Of a stretch of 64,000 bases of DNA, positions 6,508-22,418 are shown piece after piece. A model generated the notes under the pieces. The model searched no databases and was not told the origin of the DNA. It saw only the letters and a program-made list of their open reading frames with translations. This DNA comes from an uncultured Alphaproteobacteria bacterium. GTDB taxonomy: Bacteria > Pseudomonadota > Alphaproteobacteria > HIMB59 > GCA-002718135. Each line of letters begins with the position of its first letter. Position 1 is the first letter of the stretch. The stretch lies in NCBI GenBank assembly GCA_902620425.1, contig CACNHX010000001.1, forward strand, positions 414,903-478,902, written 5' to 3'. A program made the translations under genes and the position numbers.

Positions 6508-7485
6508 TTAAATTTTTACTTTATAATATTTTTCGGGATTAGTGGCCAAAGCTATAACAGATGGAAGAACAAGTCTATAAAATTCAAATAAGCTTTTGAA
6601 AGGTTTAGGTAATTGATCGTCTATTTCTTTTCTTAATTTTTTAAGATTATAGGAAGGTATCATCGGAAACATATGATGTTCTAAATGATATTCCATATGC
6701 CAATAAAGAAAACTTAAAATTGGGTTTATTCTTACAGAATAAGTGCTTAAGCGGTGATCTTTTGTGTCAACTTTAGCAGCTAGATGTTGAGTCACATTAA
6801 CAGCAAACCAAATTGGCTTCCCAATATAAGTTGGTAAAATAATATAAATTATTGGTAAAAGAGAACCTATGTAAAAAGAATATGCAATGACTGATAACCA
6901 AATGAAGAGATATAATCTTGAGTTCCAAAGAATTTTTTTCTTTTCTTCTTTAGGTGCTGTTATATCAATAACTGGAGTGAATTTTCCAAAAGCATGTTTT
7001 AAAACTTCAAATTTAATTAATTTATGTGGGTATAATAAATCTGTAAGAGGTATAAAATTCAAAAAGAATGCAAATAATTCTATCGGTCTTGATACTTGAA
7101 TTTCGTGATCATAATCATCTTCTGTTTGTAATGTTTTTGAATGATGAAAAGTATGACTCCAACGCCATCTAAAACCTTCAAAGTCACACATGAAAGAACT
7201 GATGTGATAAAAAAATTCGTTTATCCAACGAGTCTTGAATGCAGTTCGATGAACAGTTTCATGCCAGTTTGCTACACTGAAAGCGTAAATTGTACCATAA
7301 ATAAAAAAGAATAGATATGTCCACCACGTACTTAAGGTAATGTATGCTAAATATCCTGAAATAAATAAAAATAAAAAATAAAAGAAGAAATGGATTAGTC
7401 CAGGCAGATCTCTTCTTTTACTTAAGACTTTTAATTTTTTTCTGTCGACTTCTGGTCTGTACCAATCATCGAGATTAATTTCCAT
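6508..7485 (-). CDS. Membrane diiron fatty-acid-desaturase-superfamily enzyme, MocD-like
   Basis: Three His boxes HETVH, HTFHH, HLEHH. Segments HETVHRTAFKTRW and WRWSHTFHH resemble rhizobial MocD (recalled, not searched). Confidence 0.8.
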   Translation of the reverse strand: MEINLDDWYRPEVDRKKLKVLSKRRDLPGLIHFFFYFLFLFISGYLAYITLSTWWTYLFFFIYGTIYAFSVANWHETVHRTAFKTRWINEFFYHISSFMCDFEGFRWRWSHTFHHSKTLQTEDDYDHEIQVSRPIELFAFFLNFIPLTDLLYPHKLIKFEVLKHAFGKFTPVIDITAPKEEKKKILWNSRLYLFIWLSVIAYSFYIGSLLPIIYIILPTYIGKPIWFAVNVTQHLAAKVDTKDHRLSTYSVRINPILSFLYWHMEYHLEHHMFPMIPSYNLKKLRKEIDDQLPKPFKSLFEFYRLVLPSVIALATNPEKYYKVKI

Positions 7486-18335: not shown

Positions 18336-19301
18336 ATGAAAGTTGGGGTTGTTGGTGAAATTCATCCAAGTGGATATGAGATATTTGATAAAAATAATAT
18401 TGAGTACTTTGTCACTAATAATATTGATGAAGATCATCTAATAGAAAAATTACGAGATGTGGATGGTATTGTTGTTAGAACGGCAGAACTAAATAAAAAT
18501 ATTCTCTCAAAAGCAAAGAACCTAAAAATTGTTGCAAGACACGGTGTTGGCTATGACAATGTGGATACTGATTATTTAAATAATAATAAGATAGCTATGG
18601 CCATTACTGGAACAGCAAATGCGACCAGCGTAGCTGAACATGTAATGACAATGATGCTTTGTTTAACAAAAAATATTTTTGAATCAGATAGATTAGTGAA
18701 ATTAGGTAAATTTCAAGAAAAGGGCAATCTACCCAACTACTTTGAACTCTATAATAAAAACATTTTAATTCTTGGTTTTGGTCGAATAGGAAAAGCTTTA
18801 GCAAAAAGATGTAGTGGGTTTGAAATGGAAGTTTATGTACATGATCCATTTATTTCGGATGAAGAAATAAAAAATCATAAATGTATTCCAATCAATAAAG
18901 AAGAAGGCTTAAAAATTGCTGATTATATAAGTATCCATTTACCTTTAAATGAAGAAACTAAAAATATGATTTCTTTTGATCAGTTTGAAACCTTTAAATC
19001 TAATTTGATTTTAATTAATACCGCAAGAGGTGGTATAATTAATGAAGATGCCTTATATGACGCTTTAAAAAATAAAAAAATTTTTGGAGCTGGTGTTGAT
19101 GTATTTGAAAAAGAGCCGCCAACAGAAAATCATAAACTATTTTCTTTAAGCAATACTTTGTTGACGCCACATAATGCTGCTTTAACTCTAGAATGCAGAA
19201 AAAGGATGTCTGTAGAGTCTTGTGAAAATGTTTTTGATTTTTTAACTAAAAGTAAAAATTTAAATAAAAATAATATTATAAATCTTAAGATTATAAGTTA
19301 G
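18336..19301 (+). CDS. D-3-phosphoglycerate dehydrogenase-like 2-hydroxyacid dehydrogenase (no ACT domain)
   Basis: RHGVGYDNVD, GFGRIG, INTARGGII, DVFEKEP, LTPHNA. Confidence 0.85.
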   Translation: MKVGVVGEIHPSGYEIFDKNNIEYFVTNNIDEDHLIEKLRDVDGIVVRTAELNKNILSKAKNLKIVARHGVGYDNVDTDYLNNNKIAMAITGTANATSVAEHVMTMMLCLTKNIFESDRLVKLGKFQEKGNLPNYFELYNKNILILGFGRIGKALAKRCSGFEMEVYVHDPFISDEEIKNHKCIPINKEEGLKIADYISIHLPLNEETKNMISFDQFETFKSNLILINTARGGIINEDALYDALKNKKIFGAGVDVFEKEPPTENHKLFSLSNTLLTPHNAALTLECRKRMSVESCENVFDFLTKSKNLNKNNIINLKIIS

Positions 19302-19618
19302 ATATTTAAGTAAATATTTCCATCCTCTTCAGAGATGTCAAAGATCTTAAGACCATCTAATTCAGGATCACTAATACAATCACCCGAAACAATACTATAA
19401 GTCTTACCACAACCAACACACTCTAACTCTTCTCCTTCAATTTCAGATTCACTCAAAGGTGCTTTCTCCTCACAATTACAGTTTCCCTGTGTGCAAAAAA
19501 ATCCTGGCTCTAAATGATAAACCGCATAATTAACATCGTCATGTTCAAAACTTTCTACAGTTCCAATTTCGATATCATCAGTTTCACCAACTAGTATTGG
19601 ATCAATTTCATCATTCAT
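19298..19618 (-). CDS. Rieske-fold (MocE-like) ferredoxin with His-to-Cys substituted metal motif
   Basis: Acidic 106-aa protein with Rieske ferredoxin layout. CxH...CxxH is replaced by CNC...CVGC. Strand verified as minus. Confidence 0.72.
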   Translation of the reverse strand: MNDEIDPILVGETDDIEIGTVESFEHDDVNYAVYHLEPGFFCTQGNCNCEEKAPLSESEIEGEELECVGCGKTYSIVSGDCISDPELDGLKIFDISEEDGNIYLNI

Positions 19619-19678
19619 AAAAAATTTGTAAAATAAAATTGAATTAGAATAAATATTTTTTTTAAGAAAGTTGTTGAT

Positions 19679-20833
19679 TTATCTGAATTTTAAATTTTTT
19701 CTTGTGAGTTCTTTTACGTTAGAAACTCCCATTAATTTCATATCTCGTTCAATTTCATTGCGTAAATTAGATAAGCTTTTTTCGACACCTTTTTGACCTC
19801 CTGCTGCCAAGGCGTATAAATACATTCTTCCACCAGAACAGGCTTTTGCACCAAGTGATAGTGCTTTTAAAACATGAGTACCTCTTCTGATTCCTCCTTC
19901 ACAAATTACATCTATTTTATCTCCAACTGCATCAACAATTTCAGCTAGTTGATCAAATGGTGATCTTGAGCCATCTAATTGTCTGCCTCCATGATTTGAT
20001 ACCATTATGGCTGAAGCACCTACATCTACAGCTTTTTTTGCATCGTCTACGGACATTACTCCTTTAATTGCAAATTGTCGTCCCCACTCTTTATTAATAT
20101 TTTCTACATCTTTCCAACTCATGGAATTATCAAGCATTTTTGTGAAGTAATCTCCTATGGTTGTCATTACTGTTGTACCTTCATTAATGTGATCCTTTAG
20201 ATTACTTAATTCCCATTTTGGTTTTGTAAAATAATCTACTGCCCATTTTGGATGGAGCATAAAACTTAAAACACTATTAAGTTTTAACTTCATTGGGATA
20301 GTAAAACCCGTATACAAATCTCGTTCACGGTTACCTCCAACAGCAGTATCTACAGTCACAGCCATTGCTTCAAAATTTGATTCTTTACATCTTTCTATAA
20401 GAGCTTTGTTCAGGCCTTTATCTTTGTGAACATAAAGTTGAAATAATTTTGGTGTTTTGACTAAATTTGATATTTCTTCAATACTGGCAGTACCTAAAGA
20501 AGAAATTCCAAACATTGTTCCAAATTTTTCAGCTGCTTTTGCAACTCCAATCTCACCTTCATGGTGAAATAACCTTTGCAGAGCAGTTGGTGCGCAATAC
20601 AAAGGCATATCTAACTTTTGTCCCATTACCGTAGTTGACATATCAACTTTATCAACACCGCTTAATACATTTGGAATTAAATCACATTGCTCGTAAGCGT
20701 CTGTGTTTCTTTTATAGGTTATCTCATCATCAGCAGCACCGTCAATGTAATGGAATATTGGACTAGGTAATCTTTTTTTTGCTAAGTTTCTAAAATCTTT
20801 AACATTATGACAATTATTGATATTGCCGAACAT
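19679..20833 (-). CDS. lldD: FMN-dependent alpha-hydroxy acid (L-lactate) dehydrogenase
   Basis: HYIDGAADDE, APTALQRLFH, FQLY, VSNHGGRQLD, EGGIRRG. Strand verified as minus. Confidence 0.85.
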   Translation of the reverse strand: MFGNINNCHNVKDFRNLAKKRLPSPIFHYIDGAADDEITYKRNTDAYEQCDLIPNVLSGVDKVDMSTTVMGQKLDMPLYCAPTALQRLFHHEGEIGVAKAAEKFGTMFGISSLGTASIEEISNLVKTPKLFQLYVHKDKGLNKALIERCKESNFEAMAVTVDTAVGGNRERDLYTGFTIPMKLKLNSVLSFMLHPKWAVDYFTKPKWELSNLKDHINEGTTVMTTIGDYFTKMLDNSMSWKDVENINKEWGRQFAIKGVMSVDDAKKAVDVGASAIMVSNHGGRQLDGSRSPFDQLAEIVDAVGDKIDVICEGGIRRGTHVLKALSLGAKACSGGRMYLYALAAGGQKGVEKSLSNLRNEIERDMKLMGVSNVKELTRKNLKFR

Positions 20834-21681
20834 TACGCCTGAATAGTTTTTTGAGTTTGTTCTCCTAGACCTTCAATACCAAGTTTCATTACATCACCTG
20901 CTTTTAAAAATACTTGTGGTTTCATTCCCATACCAACACCTGGCGGTGTTCCTGTAGATATGATGTCTCCAGGTTGTAATGACATAAATTGGCTTAAATA
21001 ACTTATTAAAAAGTTTACTCCGTAAACCATTGTGCTTGTTGACCCATCTTGCATTCTTTTACCATTTACATCCAACCACATTTTTAAGTTTTGAGGATCT
21101 GGTACTTCATCAGCAGTAACCAAATATGGTCCAATTGGACCAAAGGTGTCACAAGACTTACCTTTAACCCATTGACCAGAATGTTCTATTTGAAATTCTC
21201 TTTCACTTAGATCATTGATAACACAGTAACCGGCAATATGTGATTGTGATTCGTTCTCAGAAATATACTTTGCTTCTTTTCCAATAATAACACCAAGTTC
21301 AACTTCCCAATCAGACTTTACTGATTTTTTTGGAATCTCTACATTATCGTTTGGTCCAATAACGGCACTTGTTGCTTTTGCAAAAATAATTGGTTCAGGT
21401 GGAACTTTCTGACCTGTTTCTTCAGCATGATCAGAATAATTGAGGCCGATACAAATAAATTTTCCAATACTTTCTTTACAAACACAAGGTGCATATCCAT
21501 CACTATTTTCGACTAGAGGTAAAGATGTAGGATCAATTTTTTTCACTTCATTCAATTTGCTAATAGTTACATTTTTATTATCCCAATCCTTAACTAGAGA
21601 TGACACATCTCGAATATTTCCTTCTTGATCAAGTATTCCTGGTTTAACTTCATTTCCAATTCTGTATCTTAAAGTTTTCAT
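20833..21681 (-). CDS. Fumarylacetoacetate hydrolase family protein
   Basis: CIGLNYSDH, DWEVELGVIIG, NDLSERE, WVKGKSCDTFGP, GDIISTGTPPGVG. Start refined to ATG 21681. Confidence 0.92.
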   Translation of the reverse strand: MKTLRYRIGNEVKPGILDQEGNIRDVSSLVKDWDNKNVTISKLNEVKKIDPTSLPLVENSDGYAPCVCKESIGKFICIGLNYSDHAEETGQKVPPEPIIFAKATSAVIGPNDNVEIPKKSVKSDWEVELGVIIGKEAKYISENESQSHIAGYCVINDLSEREFQIEHSGQWVKGKSCDTFGPIGPYLVTADEVPDPQNLKMWLDVNGKRMQDGSTSTMVYGVNFLISYLSQFMSLQPGDIISTGTPPGVGMGMKPQVFLKAGDVMKLGIEGLGEQTQKTIQA

Positions 21682-22418
21682 TATAAAGTCCATCCTCCAT
21701 CAATTAAGTTTAATGTTCCAGTAACAAAGTCTGATTCATCACTTGCTAAATAAGTTGCAAGAGATGCTATTTCTTCTGGTTGTGCTAATCTTCCCATTGC
21801 CTGTCTTGCTATAAAATCTGATCTTGCTTTAACAGGATCATCAGCCATGTTAACTCTTCCCTCCCATGAAGGTGTTTCAACAGTTCCTGGCAAAATAGCA
21901 TTACAGCGAATTCCATCTTTAATGTGATCTATAGCTATAGCTTTTACAAATCCATTTAGTGCTGCTTTTGTAGTTCCATAAATAAACCTATTAGGCACAC
22001 CTTTAACATTAGATGCAGCAGAAGAAACAATAACGATATTACCTTTCTTTTCTTTCAGCATTTTTGGCAAAAGATTGTAGGTCATTAAATATGCAGAAAA
22101 TATATTAACATTGATTGATCGTGAAAATTCATCTTCATCACAATCAAGAATTGTTCCGTGATGTACAAAACCTACTGCGTGAAATAAAACATCAATCTTG
22201 TCTACAGAAGAACAAAAGGCCTCTACATCTTTTTTGTTAGTTGAATCCAATTTCATAGTTTGGATACTCTCATTATCTTTTTTTAATTCATTTAGTTTAT
22301 CTTCATTAATATCAGTTGCTAATACTTTAGCCCCTTCATTTGCAAACTTAAGAGCGGTTGCTCTTCCAATACCTTGTGCAGCTGCAGTAACTATAATATT
22401 TTTTTTATTTAATCTCAT
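21681..22418 (-). CDS. SDR oxidoreductase, 2-keto-3-deoxy-L-fuconate dehydrogenase/BDH2-like
   Basis: TAAAQGIG, YGTTKAA (YxxxK), NAILPGTVETPS, LASDESDFVTG. Confidence 0.85.
   Translation of the reverse strand: MRLNKKNIIVTAAAQGIGRATALKFANEGAKVLATDINEDKLNELKKDNESIQTMKLDSTNKKDVEAFCSSVDKIDVLFHAVGFVHHGTILDCDEDEFSRSINVNIFSAYLMTYNLLPKMLKEKKGNIVIVSSAASNVKGVPNRFIYGTTKAALNGFVKAIAIDHIKDGIRCNAILPGTVETPSWEGRVNMADDPVKARSDFIARQAMGRLAQPEEIASLATYLASDESDFVTGTLNLIDGGWTL

What the first reader, a model, noticed from the sequence alone, without database searches (positions are those of the whole stretch)
19298..19618. Natural all-cysteine Rieske-fold protein (CxH...CxxH changed to CxC...CxxC): possible rubredoxin-like electron carrier
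Seen: a MocE/Rieske-ferredoxin-like sequence in which both His ligand positions are Cys (G-N-C-N-C and E-C-V-G-C-G). Both are TGT codons, two changes from His codons, so a single sequencing error is unlikely; CxxCG is a rubredoxin knuckle. Established: the Rieske cluster-binding subdomain is rubredoxin-like, engineered His-to-Cys Rieske variants can bind mononuclear iron, and the related diiron enzyme AlkB uses rubredoxin. Inference: a natural Fe(Cys)4 or 4-Cys [2Fe-2S] carrier serving the MocD-like oxygenase, possibly reduced by a nearby flavoenzyme.
Basis: partly seen in the sequence, partly recalled or inferred. Interest (0 to 1): 0.8.

Follow-up and report, generated by a model that had tools for sequence, protein, structure and literature searches.

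The report
All-cysteine Rieske-fold protein beside lactate dehydrogenase

Summary
ORF 19298-19618 (-) encodes a 106-aa protein, here called R4C. It passes the Pfam Rieske threshold, and its model matches Rieske ferredoxins (TM 0.85-0.88). Its motifs C47-N-C49 and C67-V-G-C70 align with CxH and CxxH. It is not a singleton. All four Cys are invariant in 82 sequences down to 42% identity, with TGT/TGC switches and dN/dS of 0.03-0.25.

In 80 of 80 species-representative loci R4C lies 42-75 nt downstream of an FMN-dependent L-lactate-dehydrogenase-like gene. That gene ends an SDR-FAH-FMN_dh deoxyhexose operon. Within the genus the two genes co-occur perfectly (71 genomes with both, 18 with neither). 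RNA contigs bridge the junction. No MocD-like gene lies within 4 kb in any locus, and co-occurrence with the MocD orthologue is weak (p=0.07). The genome also has a canonical MocD-MocF-MocE-MocD cluster 77 kb away.

The cofactor is open. The engineered equivalent (ARF H44C/H64C) assembled its cluster poorly. My best guess (0.4) is a small redox partner of the flavoenzyme. The main rival is a structural Zn(Cys)4 accessory protein.

One extra finding: the gene is a sharply bounded island of deep allelic dimorphism. I rate it a new variant of a known kind, interest about 0.6.

The parts
19298..19618 (-). R4C: 106-aa, very acidic (28 D+E, 3 K+R, pI about 4) Rieske-fold protein with the Cys4 motif C47-x-C49 ... 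C67-x-x-C70
19472..19480 (-). Loop 1, codons C47-N48-C49 (TGT AAT TGT). It takes the place of the canonical C-x-H
19409..19420 (-). Loop 2, codons C67-V68-G69-C70 (TGT GTT GGT TGT). It takes the place of the canonical C-P-x-H
19619..19678 (-). 60-nt spacer between FMN_dh and R4C. No terminator or promoter match was found. It holds a core, AAAAAAAATATTTATT (19648-19663), that is at least 95% conserved. Metatranscriptome contigs bridge it
19679..20833 (-). FMN-dependent alpha-hydroxy-acid (L-lactate) dehydrogenase-like gene (PF01070; LldD-like). It is the invariant upstream neighbour of R4C
20833..21693 (-). FAH-family hydrolase; best match is 2,4-didehydro-3-deoxy-L-rhamnonate hydrolase (E 2e-117, below the curated cut-off)
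21681..22418 (-). SDR dehydrogenase, first gene of the SDR-FAH-FMN_dh-R4C unit in this window
18336..19301 (+). Convergent D-2-hydroxyacid dehydrogenase whose 3' end overlaps R4C by 4 bp. It is the downstream neighbour in 76 of 80 loci, so it is not universal
6508..7485 (-). No conserved link to R4C was found

Best explanation
R4C is a metal-binding Rieske-fold protein. It arose once, from a MocE-type Rieske ferredoxin, in one genus-level clade of marine alphaproteobacteria; record titles suggest the AEGEAN-169/HIMB59 group. Both His ligands became Cys. R4C is the last gene of the SDR-FAH-FMN_dh unit. By homology, that unit turns 2-keto-3-deoxy-L-fuconate or -rhamnonate into pyruvate plus L-lactate and then oxidises the lactate. 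R4C is co-transcribed with this unit.

The most likely mechanism is inferred, not shown. The very acidic R4C carries a redox-active iron centre ligated by four cysteines: either mononuclear Fe(Cys)4 or an all-Cys [2Fe-2S]. It docks transiently on the basic FMN dehydrogenase and takes electrons one at a time from reduced FMN. This would be functionally like the haem domain of flavocytochrome b2. R4C would then pass the electrons to an unidentified acceptor.

Shown here: the fold, the invariant Cys4 motif, purifying selection, single origin, invariant adjacency and co-occurrence with FMN_dh, and RNA contigs spanning the junction. Inferred: metal identity, redox activity, physical interaction and direction of electron flow.
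For: Fold and motif.

Conservation and selection: the four Cys are invariant in 82 sequences, with synonymous Cys codon switches and dN/dS of 0.03-0.25.

Single origin: the clade has 100/99 support on a long stem and is sister (92/46) to the MocE-type clade that contains the genome's own MocE.

Synteny: FMN_dh lies directly upstream on the same strand in 80 of 80 species-representative loci, with a gap of 42-75 nt. The same holds in metagenome contigs and for the 42%-identical relative P0126.

Phyletic pattern within the genus: 71 genomes have both genes and 18 have neither, with no exception.

Transcription: there is no terminator or promoter match in the spacer. Seawater metatranscriptome contigs span 19536-19947 and 19508-19723.

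Charge: R4C has a net charge of about -25 and the FMN_dh has pI 8.7.

Residues: those invariant across the deeply diverged alleles cluster around the two ligand loops (T43, G45, C47, C49, L55-E57, E63-E66, C67, C70, G71, S75-D80). This fits a conserved functional face at the metal site.

Thermodynamics, from my own recall of redox potentials: a rubredoxin-like centre (about -50 to 0 mV) would suit electrons from lactate/pyruvate (-190 mV) via FMN.
Against: No metal or activity data exist.

The engineered equivalent, ARF H44C/H64C, largely failed to assemble a cluster (PMC2946596).

The sister family has 64-84%-identical FMN_dh of the same length, and in G093 the same SDR-FAH-FMN_dh operon, without any R4C. 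The flavoenzyme therefore does not need R4C.

FMN_dh pI is the same with and without R4C.

FMN_dh proteins that are 100% identical are paired with R4C alleles only about 70% identical. This argues against a tight co-evolving complex.

The enzyme is LldD-like, and LldD enzymes normally reduce quinone directly.

An all-Cys [2Fe-2S] centre would probably be too low in potential to accept lactate electrons.

The perfect co-occurrence is partly a consequence of the two genes lying 60 nt apart in incomplete genomes.

Metatranscriptomes can contain DNA.
Confidence: 0.4

Rival explanations
1. R4C is a non-redox accessory protein with a structural Zn(Cys)4 site. It would be a small Rieske-fold subunit or regulator attached to the FMN dehydrogenase or the pathway, comparable to NirD, the cluster-less Rieske-fold small subunit of nitrite reductase NirBD.
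For: The cluster-binding subdomain of Rieske proteins resembles zinc ribbons and rubredoxin (PMC2946596). There are weak Trm112p and LysW zinc-ribbon hits over residues 48-79. NirD is the second-best NCBIfam hit and appears among the structural matches (3c0d). The engineered CxC...CxxC variant did not assemble Fe-S well. The FMN_dh works without R4C in the sister family.
Against: Strong acidity and small size are typical of electron carriers. The exact Rieske ligand register is kept, rather than drifting as it does in NirD. Nothing shows binding to FMN_dh. FMN_dh does not co-vary with the R4C alleles.
Confidence: 0.3
2. R4C is the electron carrier of the MocD-like membrane di-iron oxygenase or oxygenases, in place of MocE. 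It might be reduced by the FMN dehydrogenase, so that lactate oxidation would drive oxygenation.
For: R4C descends from MocE-type ferredoxins. The genus that has R4C also has a large MocD-like expansion: 6 copies in this genome and up to 7 elsewhere, against 1 in the sister family. Related di-iron enzymes of the AlkB type use rubredoxin (established knowledge). An all-Cys [2Fe-2S] centre would be low-potential, which suits a donor.
Against: None of 80 loci has a MocD-like gene within 4 kb. The orthologue of the window's MocD-like gene co-occurs only weakly with R4C (45/26/7/11, p=0.07). Seventeen R4C-positive genomes have one MocD-like gene or none, among them G057, which is 85% complete and has none. 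Ten R4C-negative genomes have three or more. A canonical MocD-MocF-MocE-MocD cluster exists in the same genome.
Confidence: 0.12
3. R4C has a function unrelated to electron transfer with its neighbours. Examples are a thiol/disulfide or metal-handling protein, or a small cassette kept by selection of another kind, as its allelic dimorphism might suggest. On this view it sits after FMN_dh only by history.
For: The gene is a sharply bounded island of ancient dimorphism inside nearly identical flanks. That is unusual for a housekeeping redox partner. The gene is confined to one genus among 307 alphaproteobacterial genera sampled.
Against: Adjacency to FMN_dh holds without exception over 42-100% identity, with a conserved spacer. 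Purifying selection acts in both allele classes.
Confidence: 0.1

Closest known systems
Soluble Rieske-type [2Fe-2S] ferredoxins of multicomponent oxygenases (BphF/BphA3 1fqt/2e4p, CarAc 1vck, NDO ferredoxin 2qpz, 3-nitrotoluene dioxygenase ferredoxin 5bok; MocE family TIGR02377)
   Same: Same size of about 105 aa and same fold (TM 0.85-0.88, rmsd 1.6-1.9 A). Same positions of the four ligands, the Gly after the last ligand, and a mostly retained Pro loop. The protein is acidic. The tree places it next to MocE-type sequences.
   Different: Both His ligands are Cys. The inter-loop spacer is one residue longer than in the genome's own MocE. The MocE model score is 34 bits against a cut-off of 136. 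There is no adjacent reductase or oxygenase; the gene follows an FMN-dependent dehydrogenase instead.
Engineered variants of the Sulfolobus solfataricus Rieske-type ferredoxin ARF (Kounosu/Iwasaki; reviewed in PMC2946596)
   Same: H44C/H64C gives the same CxC...CxxC ligand set on a Rieske scaffold. H64C alone gives a low-potential 3Cys/1His [2Fe-2S] centre. H44I/K45C/H64C gives a rubredoxin-like Fe(Cys)4 (or Zn) site.
   Different: Those are laboratory mutants, and the direct double mutant was largely impaired in cluster assembly. R4C is a natural family under purifying selection with co-adapted loops (CNC or CPC; C[VA][GS]C or CP[TS]C). Its cofactor is unknown.
Rubredoxin (Fe(Cys)4, two CxxCG knuckles)
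   Same: Four Cys, a CxxCG second loop, a small acidic protein, and a metal-binding subdomain of related geometry.
   Different: The first loop is CxC, not CxxC. There is no rubredoxin Pfam hit. The whole protein is a three-sheet Rieske fold about twice the size of rubredoxin.
NirD, small subunit of assimilatory nitrite reductase (Rieske-fold, no cluster)
   Same: A Rieske-fold protein of about 105 aa that serves as the small partner of a flavoenzyme. It gives weak sequence and structural matches (TIGR02378 at 28.6 bits; 3c0d).
   Different: NirD has lost the ligands, whereas R4C keeps four invariant metal ligands. The score is far below the cut-off of 74.65. No NirB gene is adjacent.
Flavocytochrome b2 (yeast L-lactate:cytochrome c oxidoreductase)
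   Same: An FMN_dh-family lactate dehydrogenase coupled to a dedicated small one-electron carrier module. This is the functional analogy for the proposed mechanism (established knowledge; an analogy only).
   Different: There the carrier is a fused cytochrome b5-type haem domain. Here it is a separate Rieske-fold Cys4 protein, and the coupling is not demonstrated.

Membership tests
Rieske [2Fe-2S] domain superfamily (PF00355) | Profile score above the Pfam gathering threshold | tested here: met
   26.1 bits against 20.3, residues 8-93
Rieske [2Fe-2S] domain superfamily (PF00355) | Rieske fold: three antiparallel sheets with a cluster-binding subdomain | tested here: met
   AF2 pLDDT 83.3. Foldseek top 25 hits are all Rieske ferredoxins, TM 0.83-0.88, rmsd 1.5-1.9 A
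Rieske [2Fe-2S] domain superfamily (PF00355) | Ligand motif C-x-H ... C-x-x-H (2 Cys + 2 His) | tested here: not met
   The motif is C47-N-C49 ... C67-V-G-C70. Both His positions are Cys in all 82 sequences
Rieske [2Fe-2S] domain superfamily (PF00355) | Binds a [2Fe-2S] cluster | not testable with these tools
   Needs metal analysis and spectroscopy. The engineered analogue assembled poorly
MocE family 2Fe-2S ferredoxin (TIGR02377) | Score at or above the curated cut-off of 136.15 bits | tested here: not met
   34.3 bits. The genome's other small Rieske protein scores 136.0
MocE family 2Fe-2S ferredoxin (TIGR02377) | Encoded with a MocD-type oxygenase and a MocF-type reductase | tested here: not met
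   0 of 80 loci have a MocD-like gene within 4 kb. The canonical MocD-MocF-MocE-MocD cluster lies elsewhere, at G000:C1 about 355.9-360.4 kb
Rubredoxin | Two C-x-x-C(-G) knuckles and the rubredoxin fold or profile | tested here: not met
   The first loop is CxC. There is no rubredoxin Pfam or NCBIfam hit at E<=0.1. The fold is Rieske
Rubredoxin | Mononuclear Fe(Cys)4 centre | not testable with these tools
   Requires UV-vis, EPR and metal analysis
NirD (TIGR02378) | Score at or above 74.65 bits, and partnered with NirB | tested here: not met
   28.6 bits. The neighbours are FMN_dh and 2-Hacid_dh

The most novel reading that the evidence does not exclude
R4C is a natural iron centre ligated by four cysteines on a Rieske scaffold, either rubredoxin-like Fe(Cys)4 or an all-Cys [2Fe-2S]. 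Protein engineers obtained such a centre only poorly or only after redesign. In this reading R4C is the dedicated one-electron acceptor of an FMN-dependent L-lactate dehydrogenase. That would be a two-protein bacterial counterpart of flavocytochrome b2. Two ancient allele classes (CNC/CVGC and CPC/CPTC) would be kept in the population because they tune the centre differently.
Probability: 0.25. Interest if true: 0.8.

Novelty: new variant of a known kind. Interest (0 to 1): 0.62.

Why it matters
The 2His/2Cys ligand set defines Rieske centres and sets their high, pH-dependent potential. A natural family under purifying selection that keeps the Rieske scaffold and ligand register but uses four cysteines is an evolutionary experiment. 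It addresses what the histidines are for and how far the cluster-binding loops tolerate change. Mutagenesis of ARF addressed this with mostly negative results.

The protein is small (106 aa) and soluble, so its metal content, spectra and potential can be measured directly after expression in E. coli.

If R4C proves to be a redox partner of an FMN_dh-family enzyme, it would add a new kind of electron outlet for lactate or hydroxy-acid oxidation. It would do so in an abundant group of ocean heterotrophs that specialise in sugars. If it binds only zinc, it is one more Rieske-fold protein that has left redox chemistry, as NirD has.

Tried and rejected
1. Sequencing error or singleton: rejected. 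There are 311 metagenomic homologues and 80 genome loci, and the Cys are invariant.

2. MocD partnership: tested by neighbourhood, orthologue co-occurrence and paralogue copy number. No support was found.

3. A charge adaptation of FMN_dh specific to genomes with R4C: none. pI is 8.4-9.0 with R4C and 7.6-8.6 without.

4. A replacement partner downstream of FMN_dh in the sister family: only a 162-aa ORF without any Pfam hit (G093), or unrelated genes. No Rieske-like sequence was found by tblastn.

5. A known RNA element, promoter or terminator in the conserved 60-nt spacer: none.

6. Other all-Cys Rieske lineages: among the 125 cluster representatives with E<=1e-3, everything outside this clade is CxH...CxxH, apart from three with CxH plus a possible CxxC that I did not follow up. 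The wider Rieske superfamily was not surveyed.

7. Literature: two full-text searches for natural His-to-Cys Rieske proteins found nothing relevant. A NirD-focused search also found nothing. Two papers on AEGEAN-169 and the SAR11 'unknome' do not mention it. Subscription journals are not covered.

8. Cys-Cys distances in the model could not be measured, because coordinates are not exposed.

9. A model of the FMN_dh-R4C complex could not be run with the tools allowed.
Full report
**1. Observation**

The ORF at 19298-19618 on the minus strand encodes a 106-aa protein. I call it R4C.
- Its sequence holds G-N-C47-N-C49-E-E and E-C67-V-G-C70-G. All four ligand codons are TGT in this window.
- It passes the Pfam Rieske gathering threshold (26.1 bits against 20.3).
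- Its best NCBIfam match is the MocE family, at 34.3 bits against a cut-off of 136.15.
- phmmer alignments to solved Rieske ferredoxins (BphF, BphA3, CarAc) put C47 and C67 on the Cys ligands and C49 and C70 on the His ligands.
- An AlphaFold2 model built on 81 sequences has mean pLDDT 83, and 86-89 over the ligand loops.
- Foldseek ranks only Rieske ferredoxins at the top, with TM 0.85-0.88 and rmsd 1.6-1.9 A.

**2. A selected family trait, not an accident**

- A word-indexed search found 311 homologues, nearly all from marine metagenomes and single-cell genomes. In the best 120, the four Cys are invariant apart from a single C49S.
- An exhaustive HMMER scan of 1.84 billion cluster representatives shows a tight clade, down to a 42%-identical member (P0126, CTC...CPIC). 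Everything more distant is canonical CxH...CxxH.
- In 82 genomic sequences, C47, C49, C67 and C70 are invariant.
- TGT/TGC switches occur at three of the four ligand codons, and dN/dS is 0.03-0.25.
- A maximum-likelihood tree gives the clade 100/99 support on a long stem. It places the clade, with modest support (92/46), beside the MocE-type group that includes this genome's own MocE.
- Among 401 alphaproteobacterial genomes from 307 genera, strong matches occur only in the window's own genus.

Record titles are 'uncultured Alphaproteobacteria' GORG single-cell genomes, 'Pelagibacteraceae bacterium AG-337-I02' and 'MarineAlpha5'. The sister family contains a single-contig genome of 1,410,127 bp. 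Together these suggest the AEGEAN-169/HIMB59 group. This is an inference from the titles and from my memory of the HIMB59 genome size.

**3. What R4C is linked to**

Upstream on the same strand lie three genes, with 1-13 bp overlaps:
- an SDR (21681-22418);
- an FAH-family hydrolase (20833-21693), whose best match is 2,4-didehydro-3-deoxy-L-rhamnonate hydrolase at 2e-117;
- an FMN-dependent, LldD-like dehydrogenase (19679-20833).

This is the diketo-hydrolase end of non-phosphorylative L-fucose/L-rhamnose catabolism, which yields pyruvate plus L-lactate and then oxidises the lactate. In relatives, enolase-superfamily dehydratases and a RhaM mutarotase lie just upstream.

R4C follows after 60 nt. 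The link to FMN_dh rests on the following:
- In 80 of 80 species-representative loci, FMN_dh is the immediate upstream neighbour on the same strand. The gap is 42-75 nt, and exactly 60 nt in 58 loci.
- The 42%-identical P0126 also follows an FMN_dh C-terminus, after 61 nt.
- In the genus, 71 genomes have both genes and 18 have neither, with no exceptions. Two genes 60 nt apart are expected to be found or missed together in incomplete assemblies, so this adds little beyond the synteny.
- The spacer has no terminator or promoter match and no Rfam hit.
- Seawater metatranscriptome contigs span the junction, at 19536-19947 with 4 mismatches and at 19508-19723. DNA carry-over cannot be excluded.

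The downstream neighbour, a convergent 2-hydroxyacid dehydrogenase, is present in 76 of 80 loci. In two loci iolD follows directly.

**4. The MocD hypothesis**

- The MocD-like gene (6508-7485) is 12 kb away. No MocD-like gene lies within 4 kb of R4C in any of the 80 loci.
- Its orthologue (at least 80% identity) shows 45 genomes with both, 26 with R4C only, 7 with MocD only and 11 with neither (Fisher p=0.07).
- MocD-like copy number does not differ significantly with R4C presence (p=0.06).
- Seventeen R4C-positive genomes have at most one copy, including G057, which is 85% complete and has none. Ten R4C-negative genomes have three or more.
- The same genome holds a canonical cluster 77 kb upstream of R4C, outside the window. 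It runs MocD-like, MocF-like ferredoxin reductase, a Rieske ferredoxin with CTH...CPMH scoring 136.0 bits on the MocE model, then a second MocD-like gene and a sterol-desaturase-like gene.

The MocD-like enzymes therefore already have a standard electron supply. The genus that gained R4C also expanded MocD-like genes, to 6 in this genome and up to 7, against 1 in the sister family. R4C also descends from MocE.

**5. Is R4C needed by the flavoenzyme?**

The sister family has FMN_dh orthologues of the same length at 64-84% identity. In G093 it has the same SDR-FAH-FMN_dh operon, but no R4C. What follows there is an unrelated 162-aa ORF without Pfam hits. FMN_dh pI does not differ with and without R4C. 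R4C is therefore an add-on, not an obligatory subunit.

**6. Cofactor**

The review by Iwasaki (PMC2946596) reports results for the S. solfataricus Rieske-type ferredoxin ARF:
- H64C assembles a low-potential 3Cys/1His [2Fe-2S] centre.
- H44C fails.
- The double mutant H44C/H64C, which gives the motif found here, is largely impaired in cluster assembly.

The natural family keeps the Rieske register (CxC) rather than moving to CxxC. Its CxxCG is inherited from CPxHG. The loops are otherwise changed: N or P between the first two Cys, V/A/P plus G/S/T between the second two, and a spacer one residue longer than in the genome's own MocE. Geometry allows either a binuclear or a mononuclear site. 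This is my reasoning, not a test.

From my recall of redox potentials, a mononuclear Fe(Cys)4 centre would suit an acceptor of lactate-derived electrons. An all-Cys [2Fe-2S] centre would suit a low-potential donor. Zn(Cys)4 would make the protein structural. My rough odds:
- some metal is bound: about 0.9;
- redox-active iron: about 0.55;
- zinc only: about 0.35.

**7. An unexpected feature: deep allelic dimorphism**

The R4C ORF is a sharply bounded island of deep divergence. Against L074, another species of the genus, nucleotide identity runs as follows:

| Segment | Nucleotide identity |
|---|---|
| FMN_dh | 94% |
| 60-nt spacer | 100% |
| R4C ORF, from the ATG | 69% |
| 2-hydroxyacid dehydrogenase, from about 60 nt in | 90-93% |

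Among 47 loci whose FMN_dh genes join at 90% nucleotide identity or more, R4C falls into two classes, 23 and 23, that are only 69% identical in protein. One is the CNC/C[VA][GS]C class of this window. The other is CPC/CP[TS]C. Synonymous sites between the classes are saturated (pS 0.83) while pN is 0.19. These are therefore old alleles under constraint, not decay.

FMN_dh proteins that are 100% identical pair with either class. This argues against a tight co-evolving complex. It is compatible with transient docking through the invariant face around the metal site. SDR and FAH are also dimorphic, but less deeply, and independently of R4C.

**8. Verdict**

R4C works most plausibly like a small ferredoxin- or rubredoxin-type partner of the FMN-dependent lactate dehydrogenase (0.4). 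A structural zinc accessory protein is the main rival (0.3).

It is a member of the Rieske fold superfamily by profile and structure. It fails the defining 2His/2Cys ligand test, so I file it as a new variant of a known kind.

Earlier notes of this scan on other genomes describe the same family and reach similar conclusions. I re-derived those points here. New in this report are the canonical MocDEF cluster, the phyletic tests, the absence from the sister family, the RNA contigs and the allelic dimorphism.

Noticed in passing
window 19298-19618 compared with L074, L083, L090 and other loci: The R4C ORF is a gene-sized island of ancient dimorphism. Flanks are 94-100% identical in nucleotides (the spacer 100%) while the ORF is 69%, and the drop starts at the ATG. 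Two allele classes (CNC/CVGC-type and CPC/CPTC-type) split 23:23 among 47 species whose FMN_dh genes are at least 90% identical. The cause is unknown; balancing selection or cassette exchange by recombination are possibilities.
   Followed up: partly
window 19648-19663 (minus strand), within spacer 19619-19678: The A/T-rich core AAAAAAAATATTTATT is at least 95% conserved in 63 distinct FMN_dh-R4C spacers. It is kept in loci with a 43-nt spacer and in the 42%-identity P0126 locus. There is no Rfam, promoter or terminator match. It may be a translation-initiation or regulatory element.
   Followed up: partly
G000:C1 about 354900-360400 (L042 6910-12412), 77 kb upstream of R4C and outside the window: A canonical rhizopine-type electron-transfer cluster: MocD-like, MocF-like reductase, MocE (136.0 bits against a cut-off of 136.15), a second MocD-like gene and a sterol-desaturase/fatty-acid-hydroxylase-like gene. 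It sits next to a CUT2 sugar ABC transporter.
   Followed up: partly
whole genome G000 and relatives: The MocD-like (FA_desaturase family) genes are expanded to 6 copies in this 1.54-Mb genome and up to 7 in the genus, against 1 in the sister family. This is striking for a streamlined genome. Substrates are unknown.
   Followed up: no
window 20833-22418 compared with loci: The SDR and FAH genes of the operon also occur as two allele classes (about 80% and 90% against 93-100% protein identity). They assort independently of each other's flanks and of R4C, so the locus is a recombination mosaic.
   Followed up: no
L029 (AG-470-M17 contig) and L046/L106 (G029): Local rearrangements: in L029 iolD lies directly upstream of FAH and no SDR is present. 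In G029 R4C is followed directly by iolD, without the convergent 2-hydroxyacid dehydrogenase. The FAH-FMN_dh-R4C core is kept in both.
   Followed up: no
G001:C10:33668-34552: The FMN_dh match in this genome covers only residues 1-295 and contains an in-frame TGA, while R4C next to it is intact. It is either a pseudogene or an assembly error.
   Followed up: no
L044 6059-6547 (G093, sister family): A 162-aa ORF without any Pfam hit occupies the position after FMN_dh where R4C sits in the window's genus.
   Followed up: partly
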